In this document: positions 19,023 to 47,644 of the stretch, piece by piece
Layout: each line of letters opens with the position of its first letter
How positions within the stretch are numbered: position 1 is the stretch's first letter
DNA from: Escherichia phage teqhad
Sequence record: NC_054933.1
DNA: 64,000 nt
Direction: 5' to 3' (one strand)
Notes under the pieces: generated by a model
Database searches by the model: none
Told to the model about the DNA's origin: nothing
The model's input: the letters and a program-made list of their open reading frames with translations, nothing else
Made by a program: the position numbers and the translations under genes

Positions 19023-19226
19023 TCACGATTTATCCCCATAGATGTCTCTCATCAATTTAAGCGCTGAGCGTTCTAATTTCTTTTCTTTCTCAGCACTAAT
19101 CATTGATTTCATCCATTCTTCCGATTCGTTCTGCATTTCTTTATTTGCTTGTTCAACCCAACCATCATCAATGTACATTGAGTTTGGTCTATTGAACCAT
19201 TCAAGAATCTTCTTGAGAGCTTTCAT
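19023..19226 (-). CDS. hypothetical protein (67 aa)
   Basis: Track ORF. Confidence 0.5.
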
Positions 19227-19686
19227 TTATTTTACCTAAAACAATAGTAGGAGCATTGTCAAATTTATGAATTTTTAGCAAATTTGGATTTAAATTATTC
19301 CATAAAGAGGTAATAAAATATGATAGCGCACTTTCGTCCGTAATTATAAATTTATTTCCTTTATCTATTTTCCAATCATATATTGAATCATATGAATAGA
19401 AGGATAACGGTTTATTATTATAATATGCTTCAGCAACATCAATATAGTTAGATTTAGTAAATGCTTGAATTGCCATAAATGGAGAATTTTGTACAGTTTC
19501 AATAATTCCGATCTTTTTAAGTTTTATTTCAACATCTTCTGGAATTGGCATTGAAATAAAATCTTCTACTAGATACATGTTATTGTCATATCTTTTATCA
19601 ATCATTACTGCTACTGTAATTGGAACATCCTTGACAAACGCCATACTAATGCTATTGATAGACATTTCAAACAAAATTGCTTCCAT
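19201..19686 (-). CDS. hypothetical protein (161 aa)
   Basis: Track ORF starts at TTG; the ATG at 19686 follows GAGGAAAATT. Confidence 0.5.
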
Positions 19687-19694
19687 AATTTTCC

Positions 19695-20036
19695 TCAATC
19701 ACAAGATGTAGATGAACAACTAGAATCACAAGAACTTCCGCATGAATCACCTGCCCATACATGAACAGGAACATTAGTATCATATGAATCAGAACTAGAC
19801 TGTGTATTCTGTGTGTTAGATGATGTAGTAGGTACTGACCAGCGCCAAGGATTTTTATAATATTCTTGGGCTTCTTCATAAGTCATAGTAACTGCTTCTA
19901 CTGTTCCATCTCCCATATAAACATATTCAACTACAGTTAAAGGGAGATAGTCATTTGAAATAGGAACTACACCTTCCCCAGGAGTTGTAGAGAAAAAATC
20001 CGTAAAGAAACTTTTAAACCAATTAAAGATAAACAT
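19695..20036 (-). CDS. hypothetical protein with Cys/Ser-rich C-terminal tail (113 aa)
   Basis: C-terminus ...[19 protein letters not shown]. Confidence 0.5.
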
Positions 20037-20242
20037 TACAAAAAGCCTCTTTTGAATTCAACTTGTTTATCGCCATAATCATATCGAATCTCTGCATTAA
20101 ATTCGACAGAGCCATCTGCGTACATCATAAATGAATGCACAACAACTTCTGTAGACCATGGTTGTAGTTCATATTTCTTCATTACATGCCGTGAAATGAT
20201 AATATCTAAATCTTCATTTGGTTTAATCCAGCGATTTAACAT
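20036..20242 (-). CDS. hypothetical protein (68 aa)
   Basis: Track ORF; GAGGAG SD; early promoter upstream. Confidence 0.5.
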   Translation of the reverse strand: MLNRWIKPNEDLDIIISRHVMKKYELQPWSTEVVVHSFMMYADGSVEFNAEIRYDYGDKQVEFKRGFL

Positions 20243-20266: not shown

Positions 20267-20298
20267 CTATTATACCATACTCATTGTGGAAAGTAAAC
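20267..20298 (-). promoter_or_regulatory. T4-type early promoter
   Basis: Minus strand GTTTACTTTCCACAATGAGTATGGTATAAT. Confidence 0.55.
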
Positions 20299-20303
20299 CG
20301 GTA

Positions 20304-20335
20304 AAATGAAAAAGGACTCCCGAAGGAGTCCTTGA
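20304..20335 (-). terminator. intrinsic terminator (GGACUCC-UUCG-GGAGUCC plus U-tract) downstream of soc
   Basis: Minus-strand RNA AAGGACUCCUUCGGGAGUCCUUUUUCAUUUU. Confidence 0.6.
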
Positions 20336-20785: not shown

Positions 20786-20986
20786 TCATTTTGAATGCTC
20801 TATAATTAATTTTAAGGCTTTTTCACTGACAAAAATTTCATCAGGACCTTCTTCTACAACCCAATCAACCGTACGAAGCTGATTAGATAAGAGCTCACAT
20901 ACGAGCTCCTTGTCATAATCTTTAAATAGCTGGTCAATACGTTTCTTGCGGGCTTTCTTAAGCTGGCGTTTATTTAAACGAGCCAT
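20786..20986 (-). CDS. hypothetical basic protein (66 aa)
   Basis: Track ORF; its start codon overlaps the gene 56 stop. Confidence 0.45.
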   Translation of the reverse strand: MARLNKRQLKKARKKRIDQLFKDYDKELVCELLSNQLRTVDWVVEEGPDEIFVSEKALKLIIEHSK

Positions 20987-21504
20987 TAATAGCCTCTGTC
21001 TTGACGAGCGAAATTTTCAGCATTTTTCAGATAATAAAGTTTAAAGATTTCTTCAGCTGACATTCCAAGAGCAATGAATTTATTCATGAAAAAGTGAAAT
21101 TGATCAATCAGTTCAAATTTAATTTCAAGTTGATCTTCAGGAGATAAATCTTGAATTTTCTTGGATTGCATTTCAGCATAACGTTTCTTCCAAGGTTTCC
21201 ATACAGCAGAAGCTTCTTTTTCACCATTACTCATACCACCAAGAGAAGTATATAGCTCGCGAGTTTCGTCTGCGATATAATCGTCTTGGTTTCGCAACCA
21301 AGCAAGAACTTCTCCTGCGGTTTCAAGTGAATCAGGATGACGATTTGTTTCTGGTTTATCATTAGCCAAACGAATCTGTAAATGCCGCTGCATGTCAAGC
21401 ATAACTTGTAGTGGGTCAATATTGTGCATAATATTCTCAGCATATGCACGATTTGCTTTATCAACACCTTCGATCAAATGAGCACATTCATTAAAGTGAG
21501 CCAT
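20986..21504 (-). CDS. 56: dCTP pyrophosphatase gp56 (MazG-like, 172 aa)
   Basis: MAHFNECAHLIEGVDKANRAYAENIMHNIDPLQ...; the ATG at 21504 has AAGGAAA SD, so the longer track ORF is an N-terminal over-extension. Confidence 0.85.
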   Translation of the reverse strand: MAHFNECAHLIEGVDKANRAYAENIMHNIDPLQVMLDMQRHLQIRLANDKPETNRHPDSLETAGEVLAWLRNQDDYIADETRELYTSLGGMSNGEKEASAVWKPWKKRYAEMQSKKIQDLSPEDQLEIKFELIDQFHFFMNKFIALGMSAEEIFKLYYLKNAENFARQDRGY

Positions 21505-21575
21505 TATTTTTCCTTTCAATTCATGGGTTAGTAGATTAATTATACAATAAATATATAAAGCAATAAGGAGGACAT

Positions 21576-21776
21576 ATGGTACAAAAATTAATGGCACTTG
21601 TTAATGCCATCAAAGGTAATAAAAAGCGTATAGCTTTTACTATTTCTGCTATGGTAGGAATTTTACTCTGGAACTTTATTTTATCACCTGTTGCAATTGC
21701 ACATGGTATTAATATTCCAGTAGTTACTCTTGATACATTCGTAGATTTAGCATTTGCTTTAGTTGGGTTAATTTAA
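21576..21776 (+). CDS. small membrane protein on the plus strand (66 aa, two predicted TM segments)
   Basis: AAGGAGG SD 4 nt before the ATG; hydrophobic; convergent with gene 61. Confidence 0.45.
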   Translation: MVQKLMALVNAIKGNKKRIAFTISAMVGILLWNFILSPVAIAHGINIPVVTLDTFVDLAFALVGLI

Positions 21777-47173: not shown

Positions 47174-47644
47174 TTAATCATGTTTCCACACCCCATCGGT
47201 ATTTGACCAAAGTCGCTGATTATCTGATCCTCGCCACAGCTTTTTAGTCGGAAGATTTTTCTCATACTTCCCATCAATAATAACATCAACATATTTAAGC
47301 ATTTCTAGTTGTTTAATATCTTCAAACTTATATCCTGTCCACAACCAAATGCTTTTATTGGGATAAAGATTTTTAATAGTTTGAACCACAGAGTGAATCA
47401 CGTCTCTGTTATCAGGATAAAGAGGGTCACCTCCGGTTATAGTCAATCCTTCTATATAATCATTATTCAAACATTCAATTAATTGTTCTAGTGTTTCACC
47501 AGTGAATGGAACACCATTTCTAGCATTCCATGTTGATTTATTATAACACCCTTCGCATTTATGCAAACAACCTGTAACGAAAAGAACGACCCTGCATCCA
47601 GGGCCATTCACAAAATCACAGGGATAAAATCTATCGTAATTCAT
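47174..47644 (-). CDS. nrdG: anaerobic ribonucleotide reductase activating protein NrdG (radical SAM, 156 aa)
   Basis: Cys cluster CLHKCEGCYN; 156 aa; 4-nt overlap with nrdD. Confidence 0.85.
   Translation of the reverse strand: MNYDRFYPCDFVNGPGCRVVLFVTGCLHKCEGCYNKSTWNARNGVPFTGETLEQLIECLNNDYIEGLTITGGDPLYPDNRDVIHSVVQTIKNLYPNKSIWLWTGYKFEDIKQLEMLKYVDVIIDGKYEKNLPTKKLWRGSDNQRLWSNTDGVWKHD

What the first reader, a model, noticed from the sequence alone, without database searches (positions are those of the whole stretch)
19695..20036. Small protein ending in a Cys/Ser-rich tail
The 113-aa ORF ends ...[20 protein letters not shown], a low-complexity Cys-Ser-Asp tail reminiscent of metal-binding or lipidated tails, after a hydrophobic N-terminus. 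It is unusual for a phage early gene.
Basis: seen in the sequence. Interest (0 to 1): 0.4.

Follow-up and report, generated by a model that had tools for sequence, protein, structure and literature searches.

The report
Conserved Cys-Asp tail of T4 Mrh.1
The ORF is the already catalogued but uncharacterised early gene mrh.1 of T4-like phages; its odd serine/cysteine tail is real and conserved in over a hundred relatives (they almost all end ...SCD...SCD), so the phage needs it, but what it binds is unknown.

Summary
Observation confirmed. Window 19695-20036 (-) encodes a 113-aa protein ending [18 protein letters not shown]. It is 112/113 identical to phage T4 Mrh.1 (Pfam DUF7206, PHROG 2031, both of unknown function). 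It lies in the early operon mrh.2-mrh.1-mrh-srh, downstream of soc.

The tail is not a frame artefact. Of 111 full-length relatives (cluster representatives, down to about 25% identity), 109 end in Cys-Asp and 102 in Ser-Cys-Asp. 106 have exactly two tail cysteines, and 103 have no cysteine anywhere else. Each tail Cys is usually preceded by Ser and followed by Asp. The gap between the last two tail cysteines is 4-10 residues; overall the tail is mostly Ser, Asp and Gly. Synonymous codon changes, including TCN/AGY serine switches, show selection on the amino acids. The T4 group has two extra cysteines.

AlphaFold2 gives an N-terminal amphipathic helix, a beta-hairpin on the invariant EYVYMGDG block, and a disordered C-terminal half. 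No fold, PDB, NCBIfam or PADLOC match was found. In T4 the transcript is early; shotgun proteomics did not detect the protein, but its tryptic peptides are poor.

Best guess (about 0.35): a flexible thiol-carboxylate clamp that holds a metal ion, possibly shared with a partner protein. Lipidation is not supported. The gene is known; the function is open. Interest is modest.

The parts
19695..20036 (-). mrh.1 coding sequence (113 codons plus TGA), orthologue of T4 Mrh.1 / DUF7206
   Evidence: ORF list. Pfam DUF7206 E=1.7e-29, 103 bits against a 25.6-bit cut-off. PHROG 2031. 112/113 identical to T4 AAD42613.1.
19698..19751 (-). C-terminal tail, residues G96-D113 ([18 protein letters not shown]). 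The family-conserved cysteines are C103 (19728-19730) and C112 (19701-19703); C99 and C107 are extras of the T4 group.
   Evidence: Alignments A1/A2; tail statistics on 111 members; codon table showing synonymous variation. The DNA contains the 10-nt direct repeat TCTTGTGATT twice, once for each Ser-Cys-Asp unit.
19752..19838 (-). Ser/Thr/Asn/Gln-rich linker, residues 67-95, predicted disordered. This is the variable or mosaic part of the family.
   Evidence: AlphaFold2 mean pLDDT 42-48 per 10-residue block from residue 71; most of residues 69-109 lie in segments below 50. The region is not alignable between subfamilies and is replaced by a charged helical module in JS98-like relatives.
19839..19937 (-). 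Small folded core: beta-hairpin (residues 34-40 and 46-52) around the invariant EYVYMGDG block (residues 37-44 = 19905-19928), followed by a helix (residues 53-66).
   Evidence: AlphaFold2 pLDDT 75-84 here and only here. E37, Y40, G42, D43 and G44 are invariant in 52 sequences.
19989..20036 (-). N-terminal amphipathic helix ([15 protein letters not shown]; family consensus M-I-x-W-L-K-x-L-F ... P)
   Evidence: AlphaFold2 helix 3-15; hydrophobic moment 0.44-0.62; K8, F15 and P19 nearly invariant. A similar N-terminal motif occurs in Srh.
20036..20242 (-). mrh.2, the upstream gene. Its TAA stop overlaps the mrh.1 ATG (TAATG). An AGAGG Shine-Dalgarno at 20046-20050 lies 9 nt before the mrh.1 start.
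   Evidence: PHROG 1873. The same overlap occurs with mrh.2 homologues in L008, L014 and L019/L020.
20269..20297 (-). Sigma-70-type early promoter candidate (TTTACT, 17 nt, TATAAT with an extended -10 TG) driving mrh.2-mrh.1-mrh-srh
   Evidence: 10 of 12 consensus matches with TG. It sits between the soc terminator and the mrh.2 ribosome-binding site. This is a consensus match only; promoter-like matches in this region were not enriched over shuffled controls (15 found against a mean of 13.5). The early transcript class of T4 mrh.1 is consistent with it.
20312..20333 (-). Intrinsic terminator-like hairpin after soc, separating the late soc transcript from the early operon
   Evidence: 9-bp stem with 5 GC pairs, followed by TTTTCATTTT.
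19201..19686 (-). mrh (T4_MRH family), the downstream gene. Its Shine-Dalgarno GAGG overlaps the mrh.1 TGA stop (TGAGGAAAATTATG).
   Evidence: Pfam T4_MRH E=1.1e-41; RB14 and T4 annotation; sequence.

Best explanation
Identity (near certain): this is the T4 early gene mrh.1, family DUF7206. It encodes a small acidic protein (12.6 kDa, pI 4.05) with no signal peptide or membrane-spanning segment, so presumably cytoplasmic.

Mechanism (inferred, about one chance in three): Mrh.1 is a mostly disordered adaptor. Its N-terminal amphipathic helix and the EYVYMGDG beta-hairpin dock it on a partner. That partner is plausibly in the RNA polymerase / sigma-32 heat-shock axis served by its operon neighbours mrh and srh. 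Its flexible C-terminal tail carries two Ser-Cys-Asp units, the second ending in the free carboxylate. Brought together by a Ser/Gly spacer, these act as a thiol-carboxylate clamp around a metal ion (Zn2+ or Fe2+, or an Fe-S cluster). The missing ligands would come from a second Mrh.1 chain or from the partner protein. In the T4 group, two further cysteines (C-x3-C-x3-C-x4-C) would allow a four-thiolate site within one chain.

Shown: identity, early operon context, conservation and purifying selection on the tail, disorder prediction. Inferred: metal binding, the partner, the pathway. The confidence figure of 0.35 refers to the mechanism; the identity as mrh.1 is above 0.99.
For: Identity.

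Tail under selection:
- 109/111 members end in CD.
- 106/111 have exactly two tail Cys.
- 103/111 have no Cys elsewhere.
- Asp follows 209 of 230 tail Cys, and Ser precedes 215 of 230.
- Ser codons switch between TCN and AGY, Cys between TGT and TGC, and Asp between GAT and GAC, while the amino acids stay.
- The tail is kept when the downstream gene and its ribosome-binding site differ (T4: mrh; JS98-like: srh) and when a 50-aa foreign middle module is inserted (P0003).

The spacing between the last two tail cysteines is variable (4-10 residues), and the last 20 residues are 45% Ser, 17% Asp and 15% Gly. Together with the predicted disorder, this fits two ligand groups that must meet, not a rigid fold. 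From general knowledge, invariant cysteine pairs in cytoplasmic proteins are nearly always metal, Fe-S or redox sites.

Operon context: early promoter and translational coupling. mrh and srh affect T4 late transcription at 42 C and in rpoH mutants (PMC6070864). Mrh.1 and Srh share an N-terminal motif.
Against: - No experiment bears on metal binding.
- Only two cysteines are universal, there is no histidine, and no canonical spacing (no CxxC).
- No hit to any metal-binding family in Pfam, NCBIfam or PDB.
- A two-Cys, two-carboxylate site on a disordered tail would be weak against the tightly buffered cytoplasmic zinc pool (general knowledge).
- That the chain ends exactly after Cys-Asp in 109/111 members is as well or better explained by recognition of a free C-terminus by a partner protein.
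- The link to the sigma-32 axis is guilt by association. The upstream neighbour is not always mrh.2, and mrh is missing in JS98-like phages.
- The protein was not detected in T4 shotgun proteomics.
Confidence: 0.35

Rival explanations
1. Metal-free short linear motif. The disordered tail is a docking peptide or pseudosubstrate whose two Ser-Cys-Asp units and free C-terminal carboxylate fit a pocket of a host (or phage) protein, blocking or redirecting it. The cysteines are contact residues or substrate mimics, not metal ligands.
For: The chain stops exactly after Cys-Asp in 109/111 members, and the last three residues are SCD in 102/111. This is typical of motifs read from the free C-terminus. 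The tail is predicted disordered. The motif is duplicated with a variable spacer, as in bivalent linear motifs. From general knowledge, phage early proteins commonly act through such peptides.
Against: Conserved cysteines are uncommon in purely steric docking motifs. No partner is known. There is no similarity to known C-terminal degrons or clamp, SSB or PDZ-type ligands (by inspection; nothing found).
Confidence: 0.25
2. Redox or covalent thiol chemistry. The two cysteines form a reversible disulfide loop, or attack or accept a group (persulfide sulfur, a thioester, a mixed disulfide with a host thiol enzyme such as a thioredoxin/glutaredoxin-type or sulfur-relay protein). The Cys-Asp-COOH end would resemble the thiol plus two carboxylates of glutathione.
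For: Exactly two cysteines, separated by a flexible 4-10 residue loop, with none elsewhere in the protein. The flanking Asp and Ser could tune thiol reactivity (inference). T4 encodes its own glutaredoxin and thioredoxin-like proteins: nrdH is listed in PMC9697503 Table S2; nrdC is general knowledge.
Against: The cytoplasm is reducing. No enzyme fold or partner was identified. The T4 group tolerates four cysteines and others three, which a defined single disulfide would not favour. Entirely inferential.
Confidence: 0.12
3. Ser/Tyr/Asp-rich decoy. The tail and the preceding SYDSG repeats act as a substrate decoy for a host protein kinase or another modifying enzyme connected with sigma-32 regulation. 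The cysteines are secondary.
For: The pre-tail region is rich in Tyr/Ser/Asp (SYDSG, sometimes repeated). The RB14 record annotates the neighbouring mrh as 'affects phosphorylation of host sigma32'.
Against: The tyrosines next to the tail are not conserved in the T4 group, where Cys or Gly replace them. The invariant residues are the Cys and Asp. No kinase link was shown.
Confidence: 0.04
4. Lipidated or membrane-anchoring tail. The cysteines are acylated and, with the hydrophobic N-terminus, hold the protein on the membrane.
For: Aromatic and hydrophobic N-terminal helix with a sizeable hydrophobic moment. Cysteines at the end of the chain.
Against: There is no signal peptide and no lipobox ([LVI][ASTVI][GAS]C after a signal sequence). 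There is no CaaX box; the chain ends C-D. From general knowledge, E. coli has no known C-terminal S-acylation or prenylation machinery. The tail is strongly polar and acidic, and the N-terminal helix is too short and too charged to span a membrane.
Confidence: 0.02
5. Frame artefact or neutral low-complexity sequence. The tail is not translated or has no function.
For: The protein was not detected in T4 shotgun proteomics. Low-complexity DNA contains a 10-nt direct repeat. Occasional frameshifted copies exist (L007, P0006), and the region is dispensable in the laboratory (PMC6070864).
Against: The tail is conserved at the amino-acid level across about 111 cluster representatives, with synonymous and TCN/AGY codon changes and different flanking genes. 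It is part of the Pfam model, which matches through residue 113. The proteomic silence is explained by tryptic peptides of 8, 53, 4 and 48 residues.
Confidence: 0.01

Closest known systems
Phage T4 Mrh.1 (AAD42613.1; listed as UniProt P20706 in PMC9697503 Table S2), Pfam DUF7206, PHROG 2031
   Same: 112/113 identical, with the same tail, the same position between mrh.2 and mrh, and the same overlapping start and stop codons.
   Different: Nothing of substance; one Val/Thr difference at residue 68. The family itself has no assigned function and no mention in the searchable literature.
Flexible cysteine-rich metal-handling tails of bacterial proteins (for example the ZntA N-terminal CCCDGAC segment, the MerA C-terminal Cys pair, the SlyD and HypB tails). 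Recalled from general knowledge, not tested here.
   Same: Disordered terminal segments in which cysteines, sometimes paired with Asp, capture a metal ion and hand it on. No fixed fold is needed.
   Different: No sequence relationship. Those tails are attached to an enzyme, transporter or chaperone domain of known function. Mrh.1 has only two universal Cys, each in an S-C-D unit, and always ends at Cys-Asp.
Phytochelatins, (gamma-Glu-Cys)n-Gly (general knowledge)
   Same: Alternating thiol and carboxylate groups on a flexible chain, which is the chemistry proposed for the tail.
   Different: Phytochelatins are made enzymatically, not by the ribosome, and occur in plants, fungi and some bacteria. 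This is analogy only.
YxzE-like putative bacteriocins (Pfam PF25184), and, from general knowledge, Ser/Gly-rich C-terminal tails of microcins
   Same: Gly/Ser-rich C-terminal region with cysteines near the end. Two family members give weak hits to the C-terminal part of the YxzE model (E=8.9e-4 and 0.033).
   Different: Scores of 20.7 and 15.6 bits are far below the 40-bit cut-off. Only 2 of 54 members hit. There is no leader peptide or export context. The hits probably reflect composition.
SCIFF / radical-SAM-modified Cys-rich peptides and radical-SAM CxxxCxxC clusters (general knowledge)
   Same: A cluster of cysteines in a short Ser-rich C-terminal stretch. The T4 type has C-x3-C-x3-C.
   Different: No NCBIfam hit. 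The spacing is not CxxxCxxC. No maturase gene is nearby. Most family members have only two Cys.
T4 Srh (proposed decoy of sigma-32 for RNA polymerase core)
   Same: Same early operon; a small acidic protein with a similar N-terminal motif, M-x-W-[IL]-K-x-[WL]-[FL]-x-x-P. BLASTP gives 9/13 identities, E=1e-6 for one pair; hhalign gives E=3e-4, probability 40%.
   Different: The rest of the proteins are unrelated. Srh has no EYVYMGDG block and no Cys tail. The profile similarity is weak.

Membership tests
Mrh.1 / DUF7206 (PF23836) | Scores above the Pfam gathering threshold over the full model | tested here: met
   E=1.7e-29, 103 bits against a 25.6-bit cut-off; residues 3-113 match model positions 1-107 of 107. 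All 54 relatives tested also match.
Mrh.1 / DUF7206 (PF23836) | Invariant EYVYMGDG block and N-terminal M-x-x-W-L-K-x-L-F ... P helix | tested here: met
   E37, Y40, G42, D43 and G44 are invariant; K8, F15 and P19 are nearly invariant in 52 sequences.
Mrh.1 / DUF7206 (PF23836) | C-terminus S-C-D, then a 4-10 residue spacer, then S-C-D-COOH (signature derived here) | tested here: met
   The window protein has S102-C103-D104 and S111-C112-D113. 109/111 family members end in CD.
Mrh.1 / DUF7206 (PF23836) | Position in the T-even early region between soc/mrh.2 and mrh/srh/modA-B | tested here: met
   Window order is 56, soc, mrh.2, mrh.1, mrh, srh. The same holds in RB14 and T4, with variations in distant phages.
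Zinc ribbon / zinc knuckle / DnaJ-type zinc fingers | Two CxxC (or CxxH) pairs forming a tetrahedral site in a small fold | tested here: not met
   No CxxC anywhere. The T4 type is C-x3-C-x3-C-x4-C and most relatives have only C-x(4-10)-C. There is no Pfam hit and the tail is predicted disordered.
Metallothioneins | High Cys content in CxC/CxxC clusters throughout, and a match to a metallothionein family model | tested here: not met
   2-4 Cys only, with no Pfam or NCBIfam match at E<=1.
Actual metal binding (any class) | Stoichiometric metal in the purified protein that depends on the tail cysteines | not testable with these tools
   Needs ICP-MS, spectroscopy or native MS on wild type against C103S/C112S protein.
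Radical-SAM cluster / SCIFF-type peptide | CxxxCxxC motif in a radical-SAM fold, or a SCIFF model match with an adjacent maturase | tested here: not met
   The spacing differs. NCBIfam gives 0 hits. The neighbours are soc, mrh.2, mrh, srh and mod genes.
Bacterial lipoprotein | N-terminal signal peptide followed by the lipobox [LVI][ASTVI][GAS]C | tested here: not met
   The N-terminus [22 protein letters not shown] has no cysteine and no signal-peptide layout. All cysteines lie in the last 15 residues.
CaaX prenylation / C-terminal S-acylation | C-terminal Cys-aliphatic-aliphatic-X box and the corresponding transferase in the host | tested here: not met
   The chain ends ...S-C-D. From general knowledge, no such machinery is known in E. 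coli.
YxzE-like putative bacteriocin (PF25184) | Score above the 40-bit gathering threshold | tested here: not met
   The window protein gives no hit. The best relative scores 20.7 bits, and only 2 of 54 members hit.
Known anti-phage-defence or counter-defence components (PADLOC models) | Match to any model | tested here: not met
   0 families at E<=1 for four members.

The most novel reading that the evidence does not exclude
The S-C-D ... S-C-D-COOH tail is a previously undescribed, T-even-phage-specific functional module. It would be a disordered thiol-carboxylate clamp that binds a metal or Fe-S cluster jointly with, or strips one from, a host protein. Alternatively it would covalently trap a host thiol enzyme. 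In either case it would be delivered by an N-terminal targeting helix shared with the sigma-32 decoy Srh. That would make Mrh.1 a new kind of small host-takeover effector in the heat-shock / RNA polymerase axis.
Probability: 0.15. Interest if true: 0.6.

Novelty: already known. Interest (0 to 1): 0.3.

Why it matters
T4 is the best-studied phage, yet about half of its early genes, including mrh.1, have no function. This work turns 'a hypothetical protein with an odd tail' into a sharply defined and testable signature. The signature has two parts: an invariant EYVYMGDG hairpin, and a disordered tail that ends S-C-D, spacer, S-C-D in 102 of 111 relatives (109 end in Cys-Asp), with cysteines almost nowhere else. 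If the tail proves to be a metal-dependent or thiol-dependent hook for a host factor, it would add a new mechanism to the host-takeover repertoire and a new handle on the poorly understood mrh/srh heat-shock module. If not, it remains an ordinary conserved accessory gene. For the genome scan itself, the result is that the finding is real but already catalogued.

Tried and rejected
- Frame artefact: rejected.
- Tail conserved only because it overlaps the mrh ribosome-binding site or a promoter: rejected. JS98-like, Serratia and Edwardsiella phages keep the tail with different downstream sequence and different codons.
- Paralogy between Mrh.1 and Mrh.2, suggested by YMGDGTVE against MYADGSVE: BLASTP finds nothing at E<=100.
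- Structural homology: both AlphaFold2 models have low confidence (pLDDT 58 and 60). Foldseek against PDB gives a best E of 1.7, and the 'tungbindin' matches cover only 29 columns at E>5. A profile search against PDB sequences gives a best E of 0.77.
- NCBIfam and PADLOC: no hit for the window protein, and only sub-threshold NCBIfam chance matches for one relative, P0056.
- Exhaustive HMMER search of 1.84 billion representatives: only 10 hits at E<=0.001. Nine are family members or fragments. Two of the ten, weak hits to long (over 1000 aa) proteins, look spurious.
- The 'molybdate-binding ModA' annotation in phage TB37 is a gene-name confusion for modA.3/modA.4 and does not concern mrh.1.
- Literature: no paper mentions mrh.1 or DUF7206 in its text. 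The Emp (AV110 gp94) paper concerns a different gene, next to motA. The CRISPRi-ART supplement held does not list mrh. The PNAS 2026 anthracycline paper is irrelevant. The Miller 2003 T4 review is not held.
- N-terminal-motif HMM against all ORFs of the window and loci: it recovers only Mrh.1 genes, and Srh falls below significance. A regex scan finds the motif in Mrh.1 and Srh only.
- A collection scan for the tail on other scaffolds could not be run, because a degenerate pattern has too few fixed bases.
Full report
OBSERVATION

The product ends ...[25 protein letters not shown], followed by TGA. I scanned all 186 ATG-started ORFs of at least 50 aa in six frames. Only two other ORFs, both on the strand opposite the annotated genes, reach four or more Cys in 18 residues with more than 4 of 18 residues Cys/Ser/Asp (5 Cys with 9/18; 4 Cys with 6/18). 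This ORF has 4 Cys with 15/18. A fourth ORF, at 47174-47644 (-), has 4 Cys but only 4/18. This ORF is also the only one ending in Cys-Asp.

The N-terminus ([15 protein letters not shown]) is aromatic and hydrophobic but contains Lys and Asp. It is about 15 residues long, is modelled as an amphipathic helix, and has an Eisenberg hydrophobic moment of 0.45. It is not a signal peptide or a transmembrane segment.

IDENTITY

The window is a Tequatrovirus (T4-like) genome. The 2.6 kb around the ORF is 94.7% identical to phages TB37 and Ozark and 94.4% to RB14, and 698 phage records match it.

- The protein matches Pfam DUF7206 over the whole model (E=1.7e-29, 103 bits against a 25.6-bit cut-off) and PHROG 2031, 'unknown function'.
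- RB14 and T4 annotate the orthologous gene as 'mrh.1 hypothetical protein'.
- The window protein is 112/113 identical to T4 Mrh.1, including an identical tail.
- tblastn found it in at least 500 phage records, all at 80% identity or more. The alignments stop at residue 95 only because BLAST masks the low-complexity tail.
- The 90%-identity cluster around it has 515 member sequences.

CONTEXT AND EXPRESSION

The gene order on the minus strand is 56 (dCTPase), two small ORFs, soc, mrh.2, mrh.1, mrh, srh.

- After soc there is a terminator-like hairpin (20333-20312).
- It is followed by a strong sigma-70-type promoter with an extended -10 (TTTACT, 17 nt, TG-n-TATAAT; 20297-20269), then the mrh.2 ribosome-binding site.
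- The mrh.2 stop overlaps the mrh.1 start (TAATG), and an AGAGG lies 9 nt upstream.
- The mrh.1 TGA is embedded in the Shine-Dalgarno sequence of mrh (TGAGGAAAATTATG).

This is the layout of a translationally coupled early operon. In T4, time-resolved transcriptomics classes the mrh.1 transcript as early. Shotgun proteomics detected Mrh.2, Mrh and Srh but not Mrh.1 (PMC9697503, Table S2). That silence is weak evidence, because trypsin would cut Mrh.1 into peptides of 8, 53, 4 and 48 residues.

The region is dispensable in the laboratory. mrh and srh affect T4 late transcription at 42 C and in rpoH mutants (PMC6070864).

THE FAMILY AND THE TAIL

An exhaustive HMMER search of 1.84 billion representative proteins found only a handful of representatives, all phage-like apart from two weak hits to long (over 1000 aa) proteins that look spurious. 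A profile search of the 5.8-billion-protein collection returned 125 proteins. Nearly all carry DUF7206, and the named ones come from T-even-type phages of Escherichia, Salmonella, Enterobacter, Serratia, Cronobacter and Edwardsiella.

Among 111 full-length cluster representatives:

| Feature | Count |
|---|---|
| End in Cys-Asp | 109 (the other 2 end in Cys-Asn) |
| End in Ser-Cys-Asp | 102 |
| Exactly two Cys in the last 22 residues | 106 |
| No Cys anywhere else | 103 |
| Tail Cys followed by Asp | 209 of 230 |
| Tail Cys preceded by Ser | 215 of 230 |

The gap between the last two tail cysteines is 4-10 residues, with modes at 6 and 8. The last 20 residues are 45% Ser, 17% Asp, 15% Gly, 10% Cys and 8% Tyr.

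The family consensus is ...S-Y-D-S-G-S-C-D-S-S-x-S-x-S-C-D-COOH. The universal cysteines correspond to C103 and C112 of the window protein. C99 and C107 are additions of the T4 group, where other members have Tyr, Ser or Gly.

The other conserved elements are:

- the block EYVYMGDG (E37, Y40, G42, D43 and G44 invariant in 52 sequences);
- the N-terminal M-I-x-W-L-K-x-L-F ... P-G-E-G-x-V-P-I.

Between hairpin and tail the sequence is unalignable between subfamilies. The T4 type has a Ser/Thr/Asn/Gln-rich stretch. JS98-like proteins have a charged helical module and a short hydrophobic stretch. One T4-type variant (P0003) carries the JS98-type module as an insertion and still keeps the tail.

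SELECTION

In the loci I could read, the tail's amino acids are kept while the codons drift. Ser is encoded by TCA, TCG, TCT, TCC, AGT and AGC at equivalent positions, Cys by TGT or TGC, and Asp by GAT or GAC.

The sequence downstream of the stop differs: T4-like phages have the mrh ribosome-binding site, JS98-like phages have TAAATG running straight into srh, and PS2 and PEi20 have unrelated sequence. The conservation is therefore on the protein, not on a nucleic-acid signal.

Rare frameshifted copies exist (L007, P0006), consistent with a non-essential gene.

STRUCTURE AND REMOTE SIMILARITY

I ran two AlphaFold2 predictions with 52- and 54-sequence alignments: the T4 type (pLDDT 58) and the JS98 type (pLDDT 60). 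They agree on three points:

- an N-terminal helix;
- a beta-hairpin whose turn is the GDG of EYVYMGDG, the only part with pLDDT of about 75-84;
- a low-confidence, disordered tail.

What follows the hairpin differs with the subfamily. In the T4 type a helix follows directly (residues 53-66). In the JS98 type there is a 16-residue non-helical gap, then two helices (60-71 and 78-87).

The remote-similarity searches gave nothing:

- Foldseek against PDB: best E of 1.7.
- A family profile against all PDB sequences: best E of 0.77.
- NCBIfam and PADLOC: no significant match.
- Scanning all 54 aligned members against Pfam at E<=1 found only DUF7206 consistently. The one curiosity is two sub-threshold hits (20.7 and 15.6 bits against a 40-bit cut-off) of the tail region to the C-terminal part of the 'YxzE-like putative bacteriocin' model. 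I attribute these to Gly/Ser/Cys composition.

HOW IT MOST LIKELY WORKS

What is shown: Mrh.1 is an early-operon, acidic (pI 4.05), largely disordered small protein. It has three selected elements: an N-terminal amphipathic helix, a small hairpin, and a C-terminal pair of Ser-Cys-Asp units ending in the free carboxylate.

What I infer: a pair of invariant cysteines, absent from the rest of the protein, sits on a flexible spacer of variable length, and each is followed by a carboxylate. This is most simply a ligand set that has to close around something. I therefore favour a thiol-carboxylate metal clamp (Zn2+, Fe2+ or an Fe-S cluster). The coordination sphere would be completed by a second chain or by the partner protein. 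The T4 lineage would have gained a self-sufficient four-Cys version. I put this at about 0.35.

The main rival (0.25) is a metal-free linear motif read from the free C-terminus. The near-absolute rule that the chain ends right after Cys-Asp speaks for it. The two are not exclusive.

Other readings:

- Redox or covalent thiol chemistry: 0.12.
- A Ser/Tyr decoy: 0.04.
- Lipidation: 0.02. It fails every defining feature I could check (no signal peptide or lipobox, no CaaX).
- Artefact: 0.01.

The remaining probability is 'something not thought of'.

The pathway assignment (RNA polymerase / sigma-32 heat-shock axis) rests on two weak supports. The first is operon neighbourhood. The second is a weak but intriguing shared N-terminal motif with Srh. 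One Mrh.1 family member (P0098) and the Srh-like protein of PEi20-type phages share 9 of 13 N-terminal residues (pairwise E=1e-6). A profile-profile comparison of the two families aligns their N-termini with E=3e-4 but only 40% probability.

COMPARISON WITH THE KNOWN

Membership in Mrh.1/DUF7206 is met on every feature tested. Membership in zinc-finger, metallothionein, radical-SAM/SCIFF, lipoprotein, CaaX, YxzE or defence-related families is not met.

Functionally, the nearest analogues are flexible Cys(/Asp) metal-handling tails such as those of ZntA, MerA, SlyD or HypB, and the thiol-carboxylate chemistry of phytochelatins. These are analogies recalled from general knowledge, not tested relationships.

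NOVELTY AND VERDICT

The gene and its family are already catalogued, so for the scan this is 'already known'. I could not find the tail signature described anywhere in the searchable literature, and the function is open. That gives the finding modest residual interest (0.3). It would rise to about 0.6 if the tail proves to be a new metal- or thiol-based host-takeover module (probability about 0.15).

Noticed in passing
window 19023-19226 (-) srh and 19989-20036 (-) mrh.1 N-terminus; L014 1071-1259; L017 2316-2504; protein P0098: Mrh.1 and Srh families share an N-terminal motif, M-x(1-6)-W-[IL]-K-x-[WL]-[FL]-x2-3-P. P0098 (Mrh.1 family) and the Srh-like protein of PEi20-type phages are 9/13 identical at the N-terminus (pairwise E=1e-6). 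hhalign of the two families gives E=3e-4, probability 40%. This could be a shared targeting peptide or a recombination footprint.
   Followed up: partly
L016 and L017 724-2238 (Enterobacter phage, ON630910.1): A 504-aa gene with both Soc (small outer capsid protein) and GDSL lipase/esterase Pfam domains sits next to a normal 81-82-aa soc gene. It looks like a capsid-decoration protein fused to an esterase.
   Followed up: no
protein P0003 (Escherichia phage 235Ecol030PP, 164 aa): Mosaic Mrh.1: a T4-type N-terminal half and a four-Cys tail, with a roughly 50-residue JS98-type middle module (MEEIIRQPEKAGNVG...ATAVSSW) inserted. This shows recombination inside the gene that preserves the tail.
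   Followed up: partly
L007 1480-1587; protein P0006 (141 aa, from a 175-kb NCBI phage record): Frameshifted mrh.1 copies that lose the tail. P0006 reads into the overlapping frame seen in the window as the 70-aa ORF 19667-19879 (-). These are either pseudogenes or sequencing errors.
   Followed up: no
window 19698-19751 (-): The tail DNA contains the 10-nt direct repeat TCTTGTGATT twice, 27 nt apart, one per Ser-Cys-Asp unit. Replication slippage is a plausible route for the observed variation in spacer length and Cys number.
   Followed up: partly
L008 1501-2034 (JS98-like phage) compared with window 19023-20036: JS98-like phages lack mrh altogether; the mrh.1 stop abuts the srh start (TAAATG). 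In Enterobacter phages the gene upstream of mrh.1 is srh-like rather than mrh.2, and in a Cronobacter phage it is unrelated. The operon is therefore reshuffled around a constant mrh.1.
   Followed up: partly
L015 1-212 (phage vB_Eco_TB37, OZ035850.1): The homologues of T4 modA.3 and modA.4 are annotated as 'Molybdenum ABC transporter, periplasmic molybdenum-binding protein ModA'. This is a gene-name confusion propagated by automatic annotation.
   Followed up: yes
protein P0007 (150 aa, 647-bp ENA contig): The first 30 residues of Mrh.1 are fused behind about 110 residues that, from memory, resemble a mammalian repeat-encoded ORF (not checked with any tool). This looks like a chimeric metagenome assembly.
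   Followed up: no
window 20986-21597 (-): The mechanical ORF for gene 56 (dCTPase) starts at a GTG, giving 203 aa. RB14 and TB37 annotate 519 nt (172 aa), corresponding to the internal MAHFNEC... start. A terminator-like hairpin at 21613-21588 overlaps the longer version.
   Followed up: no
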